Source of the DNA: Octopus vulgaris | Taxonomy: Eukaryota | Length of the DNA: 64,000 nucleotides | Assembly: GCA_951406725.2 (NCBI GenBank) | Contig: OX597820.1 | Location: 15,686,001-15,750,000 of the forward strand | Direction of reading: 5' to 3' | Shown here: in pieces, positions 25,073-60,143 of the stretch | Layout: the number at the start of each line of letters is the position of its first letter | Position numbering within the stretch: the stretch's first letter is position 1 | Made by a program: the position numbers and the translations under genes | Notes under the pieces: generated by a model | What the model was told of the DNA's origin: nothing | What the model saw: only the letters and a program-made list of their open reading frames with translations | Database searches by the model: none

Positions 25073-25632
25073 AGGCGGTGAGCTGGCAGAAACGTTAGCA
25101 TGCCAGGCGAAATGCTTAGCAGTATTTCGTCTGCCGCTATGTTCTGAGTTCAAATTCTTTCGGGGTCGATAAATTAAGTACCAGTTACGCACTGGGGTCG
25201 ATGTAATCAACTTAATCCGTTCGTCTGTCCTTGTTTGTCTTCTCTGTGTTTAGCCCCTTGTGGGTAGTAAAGAAATAGGTAGTTTGTCTGCTGTTACATT
25301 CTGAGTTCAAATTCCGCTGAGTCGACTTTGCCTTTCATCTTTTCGGGGTCGATTAAATAAGTACCAGTTACGCACTGGGGTCGATATAATCAACTTAATA
25401 CATTCGTCTGTCCTTGTTTGTCCTCTCTGTGTTTAGCCCCTTCTGGATAGTAAAGAAATAGGTATTTTGTCTGCTGCTACGTTCTGAGTTCAAATTCCGC
25501 CAAGGTCGACTTTGCCTTTCACCCTTTCGGGGTTGATAAATTAAGTACCAGTTATGCACTGGGCTTAATCCCTTTGTCAGTCCTTGTTTGTCCCCTCTAT
25601 GTTTACCCCTTGTGGGCAATAAAGAAATAAGA
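25073..25632 (+). mobile_element. SINE family A trimer nested in a family B copy
   Basis: One head plus three body units joined at aaatag|gta. Confidence 0.85.
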
Positions 25633-39140: not shown

Positions 39141-40318
39141 AAAAGTCGTTGAGCTAAGTTTCTGTGTACAGTTCGTCTGTCACGAATCCTGCCCCACACT
39201 ACTGTATTAAGTTGTTTTGTTTTTTATTTAATTGTATTTTAAAATCTAATTCAGATTTCTTTCTTTTGGTACATATTGAGATAATCTGATATTAATTATT
39301 TTGTCTTTGATATTCTTGTTGCCAGTACCACCTGACTGGCCCTTGTGCCGGTGACACGTAAAAGCACTCACTACACTCTTGTGTAGTTGTTGGCATTAGG
39401 AAGGGCATCCAGCTGTAGAAACTCTGCCAGATCAGATTGGAGCCTGTTGCAGCCATCTAGTTCACCAGTCCCCAGTCAAACCATCCAACCCATGCCAGCA
39501 TGTAAAGCAGACGTTAAACGGTGATGATGATGATGATGATGAAAGACACTTTATTTCTCATTGCTCCAGTCCACTTGGCTGGCAAAAGTGAGTCATACCA
39601 ATATTTCAAAGGGCCAGCCTTATCACATTCTGTGTCATGCTGAATCTCTTGAAGAACTACATTAAGGACGTGTGTGTCTGTGGAGTGCTCAGCCACTTGC
39701 ATGCTAATTTCATGAGCAGGTTTTTCTGCTGATTGAACCAACTGAAACCCTTGTCGCTGTAATCAACAGAGTGGCAGTTTTACTGTTTATAAAATGTGAA
39801 ATAATTACTCTGGGAATATAAACTTCATGCAATGTTTAACACATATATTTACTCTGTGGATGACAATATATTTCCTGATTATATATTTGGCATAATAATG
39901 TTTTGACTTGTGCTGTGACTATCAGGTATTCAGATTACAGGTGAGGTATTTACTATAAAATAAGTAACTAATTTATAACTTGTATTGGGTGATCCTTTTT
40001 TGTGACAGTTACCATGCAGCTTACAAGATTATAAACCCTGCGGGGTCAGCTGGAGTAGCTTTATAAAAGGAGATGAGGGGCTAAAGTATGAAAGAAATCT
40101 GATTTCTTTCAGAGATTTACAAGACTACTCACACTTAGAAGAGAGGCACCACATAAAAAGCACCTTTACTGGTTCTACATAAAAAGCACTCAGTAAATGC
40201 TGTAAAATGATTGCATTAGGAAGGGCATCCAGCTGTAAAAATCACATCAAAGCAGATGATCAGAGCCTGGTGCAGTTCTCTGGCTCGGCAGCTCTTGTCA
40301 AACTGTCCAAAACATACC

Positions 40319-40919
40319 TGTTTCTTTACTGCCCACAAGGGGCTACACACAGAGAGGATAAACAAGAACAGACAAACGGATTAAGTCGATTATATCAACC
40401 CCAGTGCGTAACTGGTACTTATTTCATCAACCCCGAAAGGATGAAAGGCAAAGTCGACCTCGGCGGAATTTGAACTCAGAACATAGTGGCAGACGAAATA
40501 CCTATTTCTTTACTATCCACAAGGGGCTACACACAGAGGGGACAAACAAGGACAGACAAACGGATTAAGTCGATTATATCGACGCCAGTGTGTAACTGGT
40601 ATTTATTTAATCGACCCCGAAAGGATGAAAGGCAAAATCGACCTCGGCGGAATTTGAACTCAGAACGTAGTGGCAGACGAAATACTTATTTCTTTACTAT
40701 CCACAAGGGGCTACACACAGAGGGGACAAACAAGGACAGACAAATGGATTAAGTCAATTATATCGACGCCAGTGCGTAAATGGTACTTATTTAATCGACC
40801 CCGAAAGGATGAAAGGCAAAATCAACCTCGGTGGAATTTGAACTCAGAACATAACGGCAGATGAAGTACCGCTAAGCATTTCGCCCGGCGTGCTAACGTT
40901 TCTGTCAGCTTGCCGCCTT
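40319..40919 (-). mobile_element. SINE family A trimer with 16-bp TSD
   Basis: Three ~184-bp units, one head; TSD ctgtccaaaacatacc at 40303 and 40920. Confidence 0.9.
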
Positions 40920-49690: not shown

Positions 49691-51099
49691 GAGTGGAGAT
49701 ATGCTTTCAGCGATAACTAATCTGCTTCTGGCTTGCTTGTTTGCACCTTTCTTTAAATAACTTGAGAAAGCGTGTGAACTTCAGGGACATTGTAGATGAT
49801 CTTCATAATGTGGCATGATATCACTGCAAATTGAATTGTCGTAAACCAGGACAGACTGCATGACATGAGCATGATCAATGTGTCGTACAGAGCTGGCAAC
49901 TGAAAACCTGAGATTTGATTCTAGGTCTCGCTTCATGTGTGTGTGTATATCTTTGTTTTTGTATTTCTATTTTTTGTGTTTGGTTTCTATTAGTTCTTAT
50001 GACTTAGAATTTTTGTCAAAAATCATTGATAGAATAAGTTCTATAGAACATATGAAAAAAAAAAAAGAAAGTATTGAGGTTGATTTGTTTGATTAAACTC
50101 TTCAAACAAGTGCCCCAGCATGGCCATGTTCCAATGATGAAAACAGATAAGACAGAAAATTTTAACTCCCAAAAGAAATGAATATTTCTAATGTAAATAA
50201 GTAAACCAAAAGAATGAGTAAATAGTCTTTACTCTTTTTACTCTTTTACTTGTTTCAGTCATTTGACTGCAGCCATGCTGGAGCACCGCCTTTAGTCGAG
50301 CAAATGGATCCCAGAACTTATTCTTTGTAAGCCTAGTACTTATTCTATCAGTCTCTTTTTTTCTGAACCGCTAAGTTATGGGGATGTAAACACACCAACA
50401 TTGGTTGTCAAGCGATGTTGGGGGGACAATCACAGATACACAAACACACACACACACACATACGACAGGCTTCTTTCAGTTTCTGTCTACCAAATCCACT
50501 CACAAGGCTTTGGTCGGCCCGAGGCTATAGTAGAAGACACTTGCCCAAGGTGCCACGCAGTGGGGCTGAACCCAGAACCATGTGGTTGGTAAGCAAGCTA
50601 CTTACCACACAGCCACAAATTATACAAAAAAAAGATATACATACTTTACTAGGTTTTCTGATAGCAAATCCTTTAATAACAATTTCATAGATATGTATGG
50701 TTGCTAAAATATTCAGATTTATTTCCTGGTTCTTAGTCAGATTTGAATCTGATATAAACTTTTCCTGCTATCAAGTTCAGAGAAATGACCTTTTGCCTAG
50801 ATCCTACTCTTATAGTCATTATCTCATATACTCACAAAACTTTCATAATATCTGAAAAATACAATTGTGATATTGTTTCAAAATATATATATATATATAT
50901 ATATATATCCTGTAATAGGCACAGGCATATGTCTGTGCTTGAGGAGTTTGCTTCCCAGGCATGTGGTTTTGGGTTCAGTCCTATTGTAGGGCACCTTGGG
51001 AAAGTGTCCTTCACCGAAGCTCCCAGGCCAACCAAAGCCTTGTGAGTAGATTTAGTAGATGAAAAGAAGCCCATTGCATGTATGCACACACACACACGT

Positions 51100-51148
<49 letters not shown>

Positions 51149-52496
51149 CAGTGGAATTTAAACTCAGAACATAAAGATGGACAAAATGCCGCTGAGTATT
51201 TTGCCCGGCGTGCTAACGACTCTACCAGTTCGCCGCCTTGTTATTGCATCTAGTATTATAATAGAGATTTTGACAGTGCCTGGCATTAGAACTCCTTAGC
51301 TGAATCATCTGCCTATGACCTCCAGTCATCTCTTATTTTGGGATCACAAAGAATTATTTCCAATCCGAACTCTATCAATTCTGTAATACCCCGTTTCCCC
51401 ATACTTTACGTTCTGTATATTTATTACTTATTCGTTCTTATTTCCAACCACACACTCATGTCATGTATACACGACATCATGTTTTCCCCCTCTCTGTAAC
51501 TTTCTGCACATTTACGTCATTTACATGAAAGGCAGACACGTCCAATACAACAGTCTTTGAAAGCATGCTTTCATTGGTGACATGATAATTTAGTCTCATT
51601 CAACAATGTCAAAACAATCGCTTCACATTTAAAAGTCTTGAATTACACCATCTCAATGAACACCCACACACACAAACAACTGTCAAAATCGAACAGATTC
51701 TAGTCTTTACAAATCCTGCTGATCTCTCACGGCAACCTCACACGTATAATTAAGCTAAAAATTATATCCCGAAGTTGTAAAAACATCGATGGCAATTCGA
51801 AATCAACAAGACCTAAGATAAGAAAGCCTTCTCTCAGGTAAACATATGACGTGATACAGCAAAATCCGAAAGAAAGCTAAAAGGTCGACTTCTTTTCTGA
51901 CAACCACCAAGAGATGGAGGTGGGATCGCAGAGCTGAAAAAGCAGAGATCCAATTGGAGAGGAGCAGAAAAGGTAGCCCAGAGTTCAGAACAGTGGGGGA
52001 AAAGTCGTCGATGGCAGCGAAGGACATAAAGATGAAGAGGTGTTTGTGGGAGAGAAAAATTACTTCAGTTCTAATCAACAGATGACACTCTTTATTATTC
52101 AACAGCAAAATGACTTGGAATTTGGAATATTATACACGCATTTAGTGTTACTGCGACATTATTAAATATTTTAGACTTTTTCTTGAAGACGGTCCTTTTA
52201 CCTTTTACTGGTTTCAGTCACTAGACTGCGGCCATGCTGGGGATTTCTTAATGAGGATGACGAGGAATGGAAGTTGTTGACAGTACAAGGATGTAACAGC
52301 CTACTTATAATGGTAGAAATTCCAGGTTTTAGTGAAATGTTTTTGTATAACATAAATAAATAAAAGGTGTTAAACGCAGGTGTTATTCAAATCTTTATAC
52401 TTCCGACATATGTTTCGAAGAAAACATTCGTATTATTCCAGAAGGAATGAAATGATGTAAAACAATGCAATCTTCCATCGTAAATTGAATGTTTAT

Positions 52497-53244
52497 GTAA
52501 AGTACATTTAGAAGTGCTTGAAATTCTTCCAGTCTGTCTATACATTCTTGCCAAAGAATGAAGCACTCATCTAGGTATCTCTTCCAGTTATTTTCTGTAA
52601 TGTGTTTCCGTATTTTTCTAGTTCCTTACGATAAAGAGCGATTTCTAGGTACCCCATGACAAGGTTAGAAAATCAGGGGACCATTCTCGTACCCATCGCA
52701 GTCCCCGAAAACTGTCGATAGAAGTTGTCATTGAATACGAAGAGGTTATTCTCCAAGGTGTATTTTAGCCCTTCTATTACGAATTGTTTTTTGATGCGAT
52801 GTGGGAATTCATTGGAGTAATTCTCTAGCCAGAATTGGATTGCCTCTATTACCAGCTTGTGGAAGATATTAGAGTACAGATTGACTACATCGAATGGTAC
52901 TAGTAGGGTTTTTTTTACTAATTGTTTCAGCGGGGTGGTTGAGCAATTCTAGGCCGTCCTATGTAGCTTTTGATATGCCTGAGGAATAGTTTGGTTTGAA
53001 GAGGGTATCTAAAACGTTGCTGAGGCGGTGAGTTTCGCATGCGGGACCTGCTATTATAGGTCTTAATTTGAGGTCATTAAGTGGTGATACCTTGACTATT
53101 GTCCGTGGATCCCCTGCATGCGTTACTTATTTTTTCACTTTTGTCTATCTTAGGAATATTGTAAAATTGACCTGATTTACTTTTGAAGTTAGTCATAGTC
53201 GTATTCCTTGTCGGTGAGCTCTTCTCTGTACAGGTTTGTCAGAG

Positions 53245-53245
<1 letters not shown>
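52497..53245 (-). pseudogene. Penelope-like element reverse transcriptase remnant
   Basis: Manual translation gives GQFYNIPKIDKS, LRPIIAGPACETHRLS, LVPFDVVNLYSNI, LENNLFVFNDNFYRQFSGTAMGTRMVP*FSNLVMGYLE, WKRYLDECFILW; stops and frameshifts; absent from the ORF track. Confidence 0.9.
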
Positions 53246-53280
<35 letters not shown>

Positions 53281-53490
53281 ATAATAAATCTCTGAGCGAG
53301 ATATAAACAGTAACTGCTCTATAACGTAAGGGGGATCAGCCATCTGAATGTGGCTAGGGACAGGGCGGGGTGGTGTTACTGATGCATTTAGCCCCAGGCG
53401 ATCATCGACGTCACCAGAAGGACCAACACCATCACGGTGTCCTTGCTAGCCTGTAAAGGGAGATCAGCCTCCCCGAAGATACGGATACTA

Positions 53491-53533
53491 CATACGGACC
53501 GGTTTCGAGGTAATTGCCTCTTATCAACGCATG
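53491..53533 (-). ncRNA. Type I hammerhead ribozyme, U3-A8 core variant (copy 1)
   Basis: CAUGCG-UUGAUAA-GAGG(CAAUUA)CCUC-GAAA-CCGG-UC-CGUAUG. Confidence 0.8.
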
Positions 53534-53813
53534 GTAAGCACCGTTCTTCGATGAGGGACTCTCTCTACAGGCTGCATATATAAGGATTTTCACAGTAACC
53601 ACAGTCACTGATGTAGAAAAACCGTTCGAAAACAATAATAAACCTCTGAGCGAGATATAAACAGTAACTGCTCTATAACGTAAGGGGAATCAGCCATCTG
53701 AATGTGGCTAGGGACAGGGCGGGGTGGTGGGGGTGTTACTGATGCATTTAGCCCCAGGCGATCATCGACGTCACCAGAAGGACCGACACCATCCATCGAA
53801 GAAAGGTGCTTAC

Positions 53814-53856
53814 CATGCGTTGATAAGAGGCAATTACCTCGAAACCGGTCCGTATG
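53814..53856 (+). ncRNA. Type I hammerhead ribozyme, U3-A8 core variant (copy 2)
   Basis: Identical to copy 1; predicted cleavage after GUC at 53850. Confidence 0.8.
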
Positions 53857-56081
53857 TAGTATCCGTATCTTCGGGGAGGCTGATCTCCCTTTACAGGCTA
53901 GCAAGGACACCGTGATGGTGTCGGTCCTTCTGGTGACGTCGATGATCGCCTGGGGCTAAATGCATCAGTAACACCCCCACCACCCCGCCCTGTCCCTAGC
54001 CACATTCAGATGGCTGATCCCCCTTACGTTATATATATATATATATACGAGCAAAACGCCCCCCTCCGTCCAATGGACGGTGCTGAGTTGTCAAATATTT
54101 AAACCAAATTTTCTCAAAGCAACTTGTCCGACCGTCCCATAGGCCTCCCCTTTAAGAAACACTGATTTAACCTAAATTTGAGACACCAGCAAAAGAAGAA
54201 ATAAAGATAGACTTTTTTTCAATTCCAAAAAGAAAAACGATTTTATTCACACAAATATGCAACCGAAGAGTTTAAAGTACCAGTAATGATAAGGCTGTTG
54301 ACTGGGAGAACACAAACATGGTTTAAACAGTAAACTTTGCAGGGAAAGAAACGTGCCTTTAAGCAGTACAAAAACAATGAAAAATGGAAGGTGCAATTAT
54401 GTACAGGTTGACGGAAGAAAAGCAGGACAAAAACGGCTTTATCGATCGAAACCCGAAACCATGTGGTTGGGAAGCAAGCTTCTTACCACACGGCCACTCC
54501 TTCGTCTACAAGGTTACGTAACTAATCTACAAAGTTTCATTTGCTAACATTCTACAAGCCACTGACTCACTCACTCTCTTTGTTCCTTAAGCCCTTTGCT
54601 TGCTTTTCCAGATGGATTTCTGATTTTTTAAACTCTGCCTCAATATCCCGCATTTAGCTATATATAGGGCGTCCTCTATTCCGCCTCCCTTGTAGGTTTC
54701 AGGTCATTCTTCGATGAAAGGCTCCCCTCCTCCATGTCTTGGTGGTTTTGAACCGTCATTTGCACTTCTATAATTTTCGTTGTTTTTTTTATTTCTAGGT
54801 AACGTTATTAGCCCTATACGAATCCATTTTTATCTCTGGGGAGAGATGGTCCGTATTAATCTGGTCCATATTAATCCTTTACCCTGTCCAGCCTGGGCGA
54901 CCCTACCTATTTCTTTACTACCCACAATGGGCTAAACACAGAGGGGACAAACAAGGACAGATAAACGGATTAAGTCGATTACATCGACCCCAGTGCGTAA
55001 CTGGTACTTAATTTATCGACCCCGAAAGGATGAAAGGCAAAGTCGACCTCGGCGGAATTTGAACTCAGAACGTAACGGCAGACGAAATACGGCTACGCAT
55101 TTCGCCCGGCGTGCTAACGTTTCTGCAAGCTCGCCGCCCTACCAGGAACTTACACTCAACTGGCATAGTTTCCGGGTAATTGAAGCACACAAATCCGCAG
55201 CATGAACTGGACCTTGTGGTGGTACTCACACAATAGCTCGCAAATGTAGGGTTTCTCTTGGCTGTTTCTACCGCAAATAAAGCAGCTTTTACTTCTCCGA
55301 ACTAGAAATATCCGTGTACCACTTTCACCTACATCCACCAAACGTAACCAGTTCTCTCATCATCCCTATTATGCCCCACTCCCCCAAATCCTGCACTAAA
55401 CCTATTGCTCTTTATTTTATCAGAGCTGTTGTTGCCTGACTTGCTTCCTTGTCCACTTGTTTTCTCCGGGTACCAGTTTGAACTTAAATGCCCTCGACCT
55501 CACCATAAACGAGGATGACCTTAAAATATTATTTCCCCTATTCCTTCCTGACTATACAATACCCTTTCCTTTTAATTAAAACAAACAAAGTTATTAGTTT
55601 GTTACTGATATCGCAGTTTAGGTTTCCAAGAAATCGAAGCAATAGGATTTACTTTTAGCTGGAATTTATCTAAACGCAAACACTTGAAAATATAAAATAC
55701 ACTAGATTGTTTTCCTAGAAAAGGGTTTTACACAATTAATTATCAGCTATGATAATAACTAAACTTCAACGATAACGACAGATAATGCCAATATAATTAT
55801 AAGCAATTTCCAGATAATTGATGTGACACAAAATTTACTGAGATTTTATATTAAGTATTTCTAGTTTAGTGTCTACCAATCATATCCTGTAAATAAATGA
55901 ATAGAAAATAGTAATGGGTAAAAAGTAAGTTCGTTATTGAAATAAAACTTGTTTTTAACCATATTTTATTATTGTTTGATTCTTTTAAACTGTTTCAAGT
56001 GTTTCAACTTTAAAGTTGCGGTCATGCTGGGGCATTTTTTTTCCAATTATGTTATATACATTTGATGCCATTATTATTATT

Positions 56082-56837
56082 ACGGTATATATTGAGTAAT
56101 GGTCGATCTCATGTAAAAGTCGACTCCCTATTTTTGGCCAGAAAATTGAGAATTTTCCATAGACCCTGTATAAAAGTCGGCCCTAGTATTTCACAAACAA
56201 GAGGACAACACGTGTGGGTCAAGGTACAGTATTTTCCTGTAAGTAGAAATAACACTGTTACAAAATTGTGTGGCTACCTTACTGTAGCCTGTTCGATGGG
56301 TGGAGTGCTTGGTGCTTATAATGGATTGCTCAGTACTTATAGTAAAACACCATTTAATATCGAGCACTACACATCTGTTGGTAGGTGCTACATCACCGTT
56401 ACTAAAATGTCTGCGTAGGATATACTGCAAGCCTGCATACATCTTCAAGCACAATAAATACACGCGTCATACACTCGTTGTTTACATGATGAGAAACGTG
56501 TTTCACAGACAGCACTTTTGGCGAGCATTGGCAAACGCCACTGTCTGAATTCATATAAAGGCATGACTTTGGTAAACCTAAAACATTCAATTAATCACTA
56601 ATGGTTCCCATGCGACCTTTATCTTTTACTAGGGTCTGTGTTTTGATGCATAGAATTGTTAATTTATTGTGTTTTGTTTATATTCGCTTAGAGATCAGTT
56701 GGGCTTCTGCTGTTGATACAGTACTTCGGATTCTAGCTTGAATTTCAACCCCTCAGAAGTAGTATCCATGTAATAGTCAACCCCATAAACATGACCTTAA
56801 AAATTGTCTAAAAAATTCGACTTTTAGACAAGTATAT
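56082..56837. mobile_element. Degenerate Tc1/mariner-superfamily non-autonomous element
   Basis: Ends resemble CCGTATATACTCG...TCGA-type TIRs, with repeated aaaagtcg subterminal motifs. Confidence 0.45.
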
Positions 56838-56851
56838 TATCATTATTGTTA

Positions 56852-57408
56852 TTGAGTGAGAGAGCAGTGCATGCCATCAAAGTGACACTGGGGTAAAATA
56901 TACGAAACCCAATATACCCATCATGACTACCCGTCTGATAAGGGTACACTAGGCACATGCATGACAACCATATGTGCGCGACATGGTGATCTCATATCAA
57001 GATAAACAGCAGATGACCTTGCAGGTGGGGTCCAGTTAGAATTTTCTTCTGGTCGAGTAACCCATCCCGCTCAAAAGGTCCCTGAATAAGGGTTGTTTAA
57101 GGATGTTGAACGAAACACCCATGTTTCCAGAAGTGAATTATTCAAACCCCAAAGAATCCCTCTTAACACATAGCTATGATGCTCCACACTACTTCTGCTC
57201 GTTGATCAGAGATGCACATATCGTCAGCCATTAAGGGACATGATCAACTGGTTAAGGTCAAACATCTGACAAGCAAACCTGTGGTATTGAGCAGAATATT
57301 TGCTGTAGCCCATCTTTTATACCAAAACAAAATGTACATGTAAGCACTTCCAATCAGTTATGATCAGAAGCCACGAGAGCCACTGCCTGGTACTGCATCA
57401 GGGTATTT
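56852..57408. mobile_element. Unclassified ~555-bp interspersed repeat inside (ATT)n
   Basis: Flanked by ATT tracts; partial second copy at 63490-63678. Confidence 0.7.
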
Positions 57409-59636
57409 TATTATTATTATTATTTCTTCCTGCTCTTTACGCTTTGAGTTCATGTGCTGCTGCGGTCAACTTTGTCTTTCATCCTTTCGGGATCGATGAA
57501 ATAAAGTACCACTCAAGTACGGAATTCGACACATGTCCTCCCCTCCAACTGCTAGTCTTTTCCCAAAATTAGAAGGAATTATTACAGTGGCGAGCTAGCA
57601 GAATCGTTGGCGTTTCTTCCGGTTCTTTACGTTCTGAGCTCAATTCCAGCCGAGGTTGACTTCGCCTTTCGTCCTTTCAGGGTCTATAGAATATGAACCA
57701 TTTGAACAATGGGGGACAATGTAATCGACTCACTCTGTTCAAAATCGCTGGCCTTGTGCCAAAATTTGAAACCCTTAAATATCTAAATCTCTATCAGTTC
57801 AAGTACAAACATGTTAGCAGTATATGCATTCGGTAGAATGGTTGATTGTATTCCTAACCGCATAAGTATACTTGTGACAGCGATACGAAGCTTGTCATAG
57901 TATTTGCGTGTGATAGACAGGATAGCTGACTAAAGCAGTTTCATTGCCTAGCATGTGAATGCAATTATTGTTGTAGTTATAATAGTGTCTGCTGCCAATG
58001 GTCGCAGACCAATATCCGAGTTAAAATAGTGATTCTCAACTAAGATCCATACGTCCCTTGGGGCTCCATTTATGATTTTCGTTAAAGTTTATGCGCAATA
58101 AACAGGTTATATTTCTACAATGCACAAAATATTTTAACAATTTTTTTTATACAGGTGCAAGAGTGGCTGTGTGGTAAGATGCTTGCTTACCAACCACATT
58201 GTTCTGGGTTCAGTCCCACTGCGTAGCACCTTGAGCAAGTGTCTTCTGCTATTGCCGCGAGCCGACCAAACCCTTGTGAGTGGATTTGGTTGACGGAAAC
58301 TGAAAGAAGCCAGTGACAATTATTCGGAAGCCATGATAAAACTCCAAGTTTCGGATGTCGGAGCAGAAAAATAAAAATAATGTTCTCTTCTAGACAAAAC
58401 CCTAAAAAAAAGACACCTGTTTTATATAAATGAACAAGCTGTTTATACATTGCCGTTAAGGAAAAGAATAAGTTTATTGTCTGGAGATAAAAGAACAGTC
58501 GAAGATATGTGTTTCTGGATAAATAGTCATCATTAGTACGATAATCTTACTCACTTTGTGGATGTGTTTCTCGGTCAAAAACTAGACTGCTACTTTTGAG
58601 TGACCTCTCATTATCTATTTATATATTAGAAGCTAGGGGAATAAGCTATAGCTAGTGAGGTATCGAAGGTCTAGCTGACACTTTTAATTGGACAACAGAT
58701 ACGTTAAGCACGCCGGGCGAAATGCGTAGCCGTATTTCGTCTGCCGTTACGTTCTGAGTTCAAATTCCGCCGAGGTCGACTTTGCCTTTCGTCCTTTCGG
58801 GGTCGATAAATTAAGTACCAGTTACGCACTTGGATCGATATAATCGACTTAATCCGTTTGTCTGTCCTTGTTTGTACTCTCTGTGTTTAGCCCCTTGTGG
58901 GTAGTAAAGAAATAGGTATTTCGTCTGTCTTTACGTTCTGAGTTCAAATTCCGCTGATGTCGACTTTACTTTTCATCCTTTAGGGGTCGGTAAATTAGGT
59001 ACCAACTGTGTACTGGGTCGATATAATCGACTGCCCCCGCTCAAAAATTTCGGGCCTTGTGCTTAGAGTAGAAAAGAATTGGGCAACAGAGGTCAGAAGG
59101 TGCAAAATAAATAACCTTCTTGTTTCTAAGGTAAAGGAAGTATATACTGGTTTCAAATTTTGGCACAAGGCCAGAAATTTCGGAGGAGGGGTAAGTCGAT
59201 CGATCGGCCTCAGTGCTTAGCTGGTACTTATTTTATCGACCATGAAATGATAAAGGGTAAAGTCGACCTTGGCGGAATTTTTGCTCAGAACGTAAAGACA
59301 GACGAAATGTTGGTAACTATTTTTCTAGCGTGCTAATAGAGATATTAGCGTGCTAATATAGATATTACAAACACGAGTCGGCAAAAAGGCCGAGATATAA
59401 TAGAAGTGGATGAAGAGTTCAGGGCTCGAAACTTGACCAGTTTTCCGTTACAAATTTTAGAGAGATTTGGCTACTATTTCCAGAAGTTGAACGACCACAT
59501 AGAGTTTTCTTCGTTGTTTTAATTGCAGTATCAACACTAGAAACAAAGCCAGATTAAGGTCCATAGAAGCCCGAAGCACTTAAAAGATTTTGGTGGCCTC
59601 ATACACACCTTGTCTTCGACTTACGACCGAGTTCCA

Positions 59637-60143
59637 TTCCGACTGGTACTTAATTTATTGACCCCGAAAGGCACAGTCGACGTCGGCGGAATTTGAACTC
59701 AGAACGTAACGGCAGACGAAATACCTATTTCTTTACTACACACACAAGGGGCTAAACACAGAGAGGACAAACAAGGACAGACAAACGGATTGAGTCGATT
59801 ATATCTACCCCAGTGCGTAAATGGTACTTATTTAATCGACTCCTAAAGGATGAAAGGCACAGTCGACCTCGGCGGAATTTGAACTCAGAACGTAACAAGT
59901 GACGAAATACCTATTTCTTTACTACCCACAAGGAGCTAAACACAGAGAGGACAAACAAGGACAGACAAACGGATTGAGTCGATTATATCGACCCCAGTGC
60001 GTAACTGATACTTATTTAATCGACCCCGAAAGGATGAAAGGCAAAGTCGACCTCGGCGGAATTTGAACTCAGAACGTAGCGGCAGGCGAAATACTGCTAA
60101 GCATTTCGCCCGGCGTGCTAACGTTTCTGCCAGCTCGCCGCCT
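59637..60143 (-). mobile_element. SINE family A multimer
   Basis: Head at the right end; units joined at gacgaaatac|ctatttc. Confidence 0.85.

What the first reader, a model, noticed from the sequence alone, without database searches (positions are those of the whole stretch)
53278..54033. Retrozyme/pLTR-like 354-nt unit carrying a hammerhead with a compensatory U3-A8 core
Seen: a non-coding, CpG-retaining unit with period 354, a partial tandem copy and an inverted copy, all within (TA)n. Two identical HHR motifs lie on opposite strands. Each has stem I CAUGCG/CGUAUG, core UUGAUAA, stem II GAGG/CCUC, GAAA, palindromic stem III ACCGGU and a GUC site. Known: positions 3 and 8 form a Watson-Crick pair in the active fold. 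Minimal type I HHRs with palindromic stem III occur in Penelope pLTRs and metazoan non-LTR retrozymes, cleave as dimers, and can yield circular RNAs. Inference: the double change C3U plus G8A keeps the pair, which argues for selection on activity. Standard CUGANGA searches would miss it, so this may be an undescribed cephalopod retrozyme family.
Basis: partly seen in the sequence, partly recalled or inferred. Interest (0 to 1): 0.9.

Follow-up and report, generated by a model that had tools for sequence, protein, structure and literature searches.

The report
Penelope-mobilised hammerhead retrozyme clan
This is one copy of a 360-base, protein-free repeat that carries a predicted self-cutting RNA and sits in (TA)n runs all over the genome, likely pasted in by the enzyme of Penelope-like retrotransposons; its 'unusual' ribozyme core is a published variant and only one of four states that have spread among its relatives.

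Summary
Observation confirmed. The locus is one insertion of a non-coding ~360-nt hammerhead unit that belongs to a clan of at least eight related families (about 50-90% alike). They insert in (TA)n as tandem-plus-inverted arrays with Penelope-like (PLE) anatomy. No unit was found as the pLTR of a PLE ORF, so this is a non-LTR retrozyme, likely mobilised in trans by the genome's Neptune/Nematis-type PLEs.

U3-A8 is not new: it is published for Schistosoma PLEs, and two PLE lineages here carry it. It is also not fixed. C3-G8, U3-A8, U3·G8 and C3·A8 have each amplified, stepwise on the tree, so 'compensation proves selection' is only partly right. Stems I/II and a self-complementary stem III are the stronger signs of selection.

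One rule could be counted: 74 of 74 two-armed insertions with canonical ends pair one tailed with one tail-less end. This copy has one hammerhead per strand and cannot release a monomer. Cleavage and circles are untested. The scan noted similar PLE anatomy earlier in two other genomes.

The parts
53246..53277 (.). (TA)16, left half of the target microsatellite
53280..53633 (-). Full 354-nt unit (family period 360; 6-nt deletion in this copy), ends at the long (tailed) 3' end
53280..53323 (-). ~42-44-nt tail between the short and long 3' ends; present on this arm only
53491..53533 (-). Type I hammerhead motif, U3-A8 core, palindromic stem III; predicted cut after C17 at 53497
53634..53793 (-). 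5'-truncated tandem copy (unit positions ~199-360), no hammerhead
53794..54029 (+). Inverted 5'-truncated arm (unit positions ~79-318), ends at the short, tail-less 3' end
53814..53856 (+). Second, identical hammerhead motif; predicted cut after C17 at 53850
54030..54047 (.). (TA)n, right half of the target microsatellite
52473..53236 (-). Neighbour, not part of the unit: old, broken PLE reverse-transcriptase fragment (stops and frameshifts; residues ~202-459 of the 781-aa PLE protein, 56-68% alike in the main pieces) ending beside the same (TA)n run

Best explanation
The locus is a truncated, two-armed insertion of a non-coding ~360-nt hammerhead unit (a non-LTR retrozyme) that was likely copied into a (TA)n run by the reverse transcriptase and endonuclease of an autonomous Penelope-like element acting in trans. 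Shown: dispersed family, no ORF, head-to-tail units, (TA)n targets, two fixed 3' ends 42-43 nt apart (59 in family C), and two-armed insertions that pair one long with one short end. Inferred mechanism: tandem loci are transcribed; neighbouring hammerheads pair through the palindromic stem III and cut out unit-length RNA, which would circularise; the PLE protein binds the conserved hairpins in the 3' half, nicks both strands of a (TA)n target and starts one cDNA at the long site and the other at the short site; copying past the unit junction gives the tandem copies, and joining the two 5'-truncated cDNAs gives the inversion. The ribozyme is likely slow or protein-assisted, since nucleotides 3 and 8 drift among all four pyrimidine/purine combinations. 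The window copy is likely a dead end.
For: Family: 1900 first-look candidates, 40 scored, 117 matches. Of 210 clan locus records (overlapping ones included) 7 have a PLE protein hit; in 6 a (TA)n run lies between, and 1 (L129) is a direct PLE-RT/unit chimera bounded by (TA)n at both ends. Longest ATG frame in a doubled unit 30-73 aa. Ends: of 155 distinct insertions, 73 long+short, 2 flagged long+long (one is long+short, one runs past the junction), 0 short+short, 61 single-armed (41 long, 20 short), 19 with a non-canonical end. Two autonomous PLE insertions (L102, L095) show the same long+short pairing. Intact 781-aa RT + GIY-YIG PLEs with a CxxxCxxC motif, hammerhead-bearing pLTRs and (TA)n ends are abundant. 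Structure: circular folds of seven units from six (sub)families have z -3.3 to -7.9 on the hammerhead strand, always stronger than the other strand; 20 of 45 named pairs change on both sides, 90% of cells paired against 33-48% for slid controls. Stem III is self-complementary in all eight families while its sequence differs. Two-copy fold is the double hammerhead, -26.5 against 2 x -9.3 kcal/mol for misfolded monomers. Two RT start sites bounding the tail were shown in vitro for an anole PLE (PMC11167929).
Against: No cleavage or circle is shown. The units have no detectable similarity to the pLTRs of the PLE lineages examined, so the partner is not identified; the chimera is a single case and concerns family D. 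Loci were chosen as best hits and reach only 0.5-1.5 kb each side, so a rare ORF-bearing master is not excluded. Units within the longest B arrays differ in a graded way (C14, C5), which fits a heterogeneous multimer or later unequal crossing-over as well as a single circle. In vitro, hammerhead mutants did not impair PLE insertion and both strands used the same start sites (PMC11167929), and in one type III construct only the C-G to G-C swap rescued this region (PMC9901934). Eight of nine Xenopus retrozyme dimers did not cleave in vitro (bioRxiv 10.64898/2026.07.22.740005). The shuffle control ignores relatedness.
Confidence: 0.82

Rival explanations
1. The unit is just the pLTR of an autonomous PLE that was not sampled, and the arrays are its truncated ends.
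For: Tail, inversion, tandem and (TA)n targeting are all PLE hallmarks (PMC8557442, PMC3846280). U3-A8 cores and the same 6-nt palindromes occur in pLTRs of PLEs in this genome. An earlier scan note on another genome reached this verdict for a similar insert.
Against: Upstream of full units lies the tail of another unit, not a UTR or ORF, in arrays up to about 12 units. No clan locus joins the 3' end of a PLE ORF. The PLE fragment beside the window copy belongs to an old family (79-83% alike) and none of its 19 other fetched copies lies beside a unit.
Confidence: 0.08
2. The element is mobilised as a linear multimeric read-through RNA; the hammerhead is weak or vestigial and no circle is involved.
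For: A C3·A8 subfamily (29 of 35 non-U3 matches; copies 98-100% alike) and U3·G8 families (61 of the first 100 of 473 matches) spread with normal anatomy; family B carries U4C plus a U·U pair at the base of stem II. Hammerhead mutants did not block PLE insertion in vitro (PMC11167929).
Against: G5, A6, A9, G12-A15.1 and U16.1 are unchanged in all 35 tree rows while families fall to ~50% identity; pyrimidine at position 8 in 2 matches against 784 with purine; stem III stays self-complementary through repeated rewriting. Mussel and coral retrozymes of this size are abundant circles (PMC7229834).
Confidence: 0.35
3. A satellite-like repeat that amplifies at the DNA level, with a chance hammerhead-like motif.
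For: Tandem arrays; some copies multiplied by segmental duplication (C31 copies; L241-L243).
Against: Dispersed short arrays with exact 3' ends, variable 5' truncation, inversions, RNA-strand-biased folding and covarying stems.
Confidence: 0.02

Closest known systems
Metazoan non-LTR retrozymes (Cervera and de la Peña 2020, PMC7229834; Li, Clavereau and Pollet 2026, bioRxiv 10.64898/2026.07.22.740005)
   Same: Non-coding ~350-390-nt tandem units with one type I hammerhead, short palindromic stem III, strong self-pairing, coexisting with PLEs; mussel units are the same size.
   Different: Here dispersed insertions keep full PLE anatomy (tail, two arms, (TA)n), the clan has no detectable homology to the pLTRs examined and has diversified to ~50% identity on its own; core states 3/8 vary; GC 42-50%; expression and circles untested.
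pLTR insertions of endonuclease-positive PLEs, Neptune/Nematis type (PMC8557442, PMC3846280, PMC11167929)
   Same: Partial tandems, inverted 5'-truncated arm, 30-40-nt tail at one end, AT-rich or (TA)n targets, hammerhead upstream of two 3' ends.
   Different: No ORF; the whole element is the repeat; the tail asymmetry, described as 'often' or 'optional' in print, is 74 of 74 here.
U3-A8 minimal hammerheads of Schistosoma Cercyon PLEs (PMC4209133) and natural U3-A8 and U4C variants (PMC3088659)
   Same: Same core covariation, missed by CUGANGA descriptors (about 1,300 hits in S. mansoni with the changed descriptor).
   Different: Here 6-bp stem I and 4-bp stem II as in canonical metazoan type I motifs, and both single-step intermediates are present as amplified subfamilies.

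Membership tests
Non-LTR retrozyme | Type I hammerhead motif in each unit | tested here: met
   double-hammerhead fold
Non-LTR retrozyme | Head-to-tail units of about 170-400 nt (family level) | tested here: met
   period 354-362; arrays up to about 12 units
Non-LTR retrozyme | No protein coding, not attached to an RT ORF | tested here: met
   sample limited to 210 locus records with 0.5-1.5 kb flanks
Non-LTR retrozyme | Highly self-paired monomer RNA | tested here: met
   z -3.3 to -7.9; covariation
Non-LTR retrozyme | Low GC (<45%), a descriptive trait in PMC7229834 | tested here: inconclusive
   42-43% in C, D, F; 46-50% in A, Ac, B
Non-LTR retrozyme | Self-cleavage and accumulation as circular RNA | not testable with these tools
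   only contigs of runs guessed to be RNA were available
'Active' retrozyme locus (two consecutive hammerhead units, bioRxiv 2026) | Two same-strand hammerheads in tandem at this locus | tested here: not met
   window has one motif per strand; met at other loci such as L002, L016, L029, L231. The window copy is filed as a truncated insertion, not an active locus.
Autonomous PLE (pLTR of) | RT + GIY-YIG ORF between or upstream of the repeats | tested here: not met
PLE-type insertion | Partial tandem, inverted 5'-truncated arm, tail at one end, microsatellite target | tested here: met
Rfam hammerhead families | Match to a covariance model | tested here: not met
   no hammerhead family among 7 matches up to E 10 in 50000-58000

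The most novel reading that the evidence does not exclude
The clan is a long-lived, self-standing 'SINE of Penelope elements' that moves through a 360-nt RNA circle copied by a two-headed PLE enzyme, with one active site fixed at the tail end and the other 42 nt inside, each primed by one target strand. Its hammerhead core walks between C3-G8 and U3-A8 through amplified C3·A8 and U3·G8 intermediates, giving a natural record of how a catalytic tertiary pair evolves and a direct test of whether cleavage rate controls mobility.
Probability: 0.35. Interest if true: 0.75.

Novelty: new member of a known kind. Interest (0 to 1): 0.5.

Why it matters
How PLEs make their tandem, inverted and tailed insertions, and whether animal retrozymes really move through PLE enzymes and RNA circles, are open questions. 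This clan offers thousands of candidate short insertions with fixed ends, young families (B copies 98-100% alike), intact candidate partner PLEs in the same genome, a strict long+short arm rule that a dimer model predicts, and near-identical natural ribozymes with all four 3/8 combinations for kinetics. The U3-A8 core by itself is not news.

Tried and rejected
Rfam scan: no hammerhead hit. A Pfam accession recalled from memory for a PLE domain does not exist in the library; GIY-YIG PF01541 was used instead. The adjacent RT fragment as parent PLE: rejected, old family with an unrelated pLTR. Sequencing runs: no RNA holder listed; contigs of runs only guessed to be RNA hold pieces of clan members, including a head-to-tail joint seen in a likely DNA run too; not used as evidence. 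A-to-I editing of nucleotide 8: run X6 read G at this position in 271 of 318 depth on the C3·A8 unit, but the genome holds a C3-G8 subfamily with the same loop variants, so editing is not needed. B arising from the C3·A8 subfamily: neither supported nor rejected (p-AU 0.50); the later tree places B inside H. First tree was distorted by one spurious row (L156), left out afterwards. A single circular template per insertion: both arms share variants in several arrays but long arrays vary inside; inconclusive. Literature searches for a cephalopod hammerhead or retrozyme found none; an octopus repeat annotation has no 'hammerhead', 'ribozyme' or 'retrozyme' in its main text. No supplements were read; those of PMC4209133, PMC7229834, PMC13282606 and the bioRxiv preprint could list such elements.

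Full report
1. Observation. On the minus strand a 5'-truncated copy (53793-53634) runs into a full 354-nt unit (53633-53280). An inverted arm (53794-54029) follows on the plus strand. (TA)n runs flank both ends. Two identical 43-nt hammerhead motifs lie on opposite strands, with predicted cuts after 53850 (+) and 53497 (-). CpG observed/expected is 0.80 against 0.54 in the window. Rfam does not see the motif. Each strand holds only one motif, and the two arms are a 240-nt inverted repeat, so this locus cannot release a unit-length RNA by itself (sequence; inference).

2. A family and a clan. The unit gave 1900 first-look candidates in the 2.8-Gb genome, of which 40 were scored; these are not copy numbers. 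Following neighbours led to related families, named here A (with subfamilies A1, the window's own; Ac; Ag), B, C, D, E, F, G and H. Identity to the window unit runs from about 90% (Ac, Ag) through 74-85% (B, G, H) and 67% (F) to 49-57% (C, D, E). B is very young, with copies 98-100% alike and arrays up to about 12 units. The longest ATG frame in a doubled unit is 30-73 aa. Upstream of a full unit lies the tail of another unit, so the template itself was a multimer or a circle (inference).

3. Not a pLTR. The genome has many GIY-YIG hits (6136 candidates, 150 scored), among them a young family with an intact 781-aa RT + GIY-YIG frame, an upstream 479-aa frame and a CxxxCxxC motif before the nuclease. 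PMC8557442 (passages) gives that motif as a mark of Neptune and Nematis PLEs. These PLEs also end in (TA)n and carry hammerheads. The units show no similarity to their pLTRs or to those of two other lineages. Of 210 clan locus records, 7 have a PLE protein hit; 6 are separated from the unit by a (TA)n run. The seventh, L129, is a PLE RT fragment joined without TA to a 5'-truncated D array, the whole bounded by (TA)n. It reads best as a template switch from unit RNA to PLE mRNA, a single case. The broken RT fragment beside the window copy (52473-53236) belongs to that same old PLE family; none of 19 other fetched copies lies beside a unit.

4. Insertion anatomy. Each family has two fixed 3' ends, 42-45 nt apart in A, B, D, F, G and 59 in C. 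Among 155 distinct insertions the automatic tally gave 73 long+short, 2 long+long, 0 short+short, 61 single-armed (41 long, 20 short) and 19 with a non-canonical end. One long+long case (L250) is long+short against a closer reference; the other (L137) runs past the junction. So 74 of 74 two-armed insertions with canonical ends are mixed, against about 44% expected from the single-arm frequencies (my arithmetic). Best-hit sampling favours long ends in A1 and D, but the pattern-derived Ac set gave 11 of 11. Two autonomous PLE insertions show the same pairing. [quoted passage not shown] PMC11167929 (parts 1-2 of 4) shows that the tail lies between two RT start sites, that both target strands are cut and extended, and that the protein is predicted to be a dimer; it saw no strand difference in start site. 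One subunit per start site explains the rule (inference).

5. The RNA. Folded as circles, seven units from six (sub)families are more stable than shuffles on the hammerhead strand (z -3.3 to -7.9, 40 shuffles each) and less so on the other. In most folds the hammerhead caps a long rod, followed by conserved hairpins up to the tail. On an alignment of 11 real copies, 20 of 45 named pairs change on both sides and 90% of cells pair, against 33-48% when partners are slid; the structure came from this alignment and the rows are related, so this is support, not a probability. Stem III is a perfect palindrome in A, B, C, D, E, F and G and a G·U-containing one in H, with a different sequence in each. 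Two window motifs fold, unconstrained, into the double hammerhead (-26.5 kcal/mol against -9.3 for a misfolded monomer).

6. The U3-A8 claim. All 45 motifs aligned from the A1 loci have U3 and A8. The variant is published: about 1,300 hits in Schistosoma PLEs (PMC4209133, parts 1-2 of 4) and several natural hammerheads, active in vitro (PMC3088659, passages). In one type III construct only the C-G to G-C swap rescued this region (PMC9901934, passages). Two PLE lineages of this genome carry U3-A8 and a third carries C3-G8 with U4C. Within one stem-I context the genome has 311 matches with A8 (13 of the first 100 are C3·A8) and 473 with G8 (39 of the first 100 C3-G8, 61 U3·G8), but only 2 with a pyrimidine at 8; with a loop-restricted pattern 4 of 35 non-U3 matches had G3 and none A3. 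On a 35-row tree, position 3 changes 4 times and position 8 six times, always by transition, while G5, A6, A9, G12-A15.1 and U16.1 do not change. Starred branches nest Ag (C3-G8) with Ac (C3·A8) among A1 (U3-A8), and B (C3-G8, U4C) inside H (U3·G8). The G rows form a ladder that may reflect recombinants, so counts are rough, and the root is an assumed outgroup. The pair is thus regained stepwise through intermediates that were themselves mobile; C3·A8 is the rarest state, which fits weak selection for pairing.

7. Mechanism and odds. Shown: family, anatomy, targets, structure conservation. Inferred: trans-mobilisation by a Neptune/Nematis-type PLE (about 0.82 for the whole reading), dimeric cleavage, and a circular intermediate (a little better than even). 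The linear-multimer rival is real: hammerhead mutants did not block PLE insertion in vitro (PMC11167929), and eight of nine Xenopus dimers did not cleave (bioRxiv 10.64898/2026.07.22.740005, parts 1-3 of 5). Mussel retrozymes of 350-390 nt are abundant circles (PMC7229834, passages and section 14). Expression could not be tested.

8. Novelty. A new member of a known kind. Searches found no cephalopod retrozyme paper, and PMC13282606 (passages) has no 'hammerhead', 'ribozyme' or 'retrozyme' in its main text; supplements were not read. PMC7151607 (one passage) added nothing. The host's identity was not tested. The scan's index had no look-alike sequence and two notes on similar PLE anatomy in other genomes. 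What is fresh is the counted long+short rule, the independence of the clan from known pLTRs, and the four-state walk of the core.

Noticed in passing
window 52473-53236 (-): Broken reverse-transcriptase fragment of an old PLE family (1336 candidates, copies 79-83% alike); that family's pLTR has a U3-A8 hammerhead with the same 6-nt stem III palindrome as family A.
   Followed up: yes
L094:568-4271 and L091-L099: Young intact PLE family with two overlapping frames (479 aa of no known family, then 781 aa RT + GIY-YIG); canonical PLEs are described with a single ORF.
   Followed up: partly
L129:876-1737: Chimeric insertion: PLE RT fragment joined without TA to a family D array, (TA)n at both outer ends; likely template switch.
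   Followed up: partly
family B arrays (L031-L060, L206-L225): Variants shared by two or more units are A>G 11 against T>C 2 (p about 0.01, one of six tests; singletons 5 to 5; not seen in Ac or C). Could be A-to-I editing written into the genome.
   Followed up: partly
clan alignment, base of stem II: B, D and E (C3-G8) have a mismatch at the base of stem II, while A1, F and C (U3-A8) have a Watson-Crick pair there; Ag has both intact. May reflect tuning of cleavage rate.
   Followed up: no
unit positions ~48-60 (window ~53575-53585, -): A TATA-like run lies 40-55 nt upstream of the hammerhead in most families; possible internal promoter.
   Followed up: no
L101:2521-2570 (+); L109 5047 (-) and L126: Other hammerhead-like motifs with a C4 core beside (TA)n, one with a 10-bp stem I; separate families not traced.
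   Followed up: no
tails of family A and of the 781-aa PLE: Both tails begin with TATA, hold a CUC...GAG hairpin and end in a short TTATTAT run; a weak hint at the partner, not tested statistically.
   Followed up: no
window 40314-40870, 59666-60094, 25157-25563, 54900-55140 and others: Abundant SINE-like repeats, some in 183-184-nt tandems.
   Followed up: no
L008, L009, L011, L012, L015, L018, L025 (contig C31); L241-L243: Same insertion with its flanks repeated by segmental or tandem duplication.
   Followed up: partly
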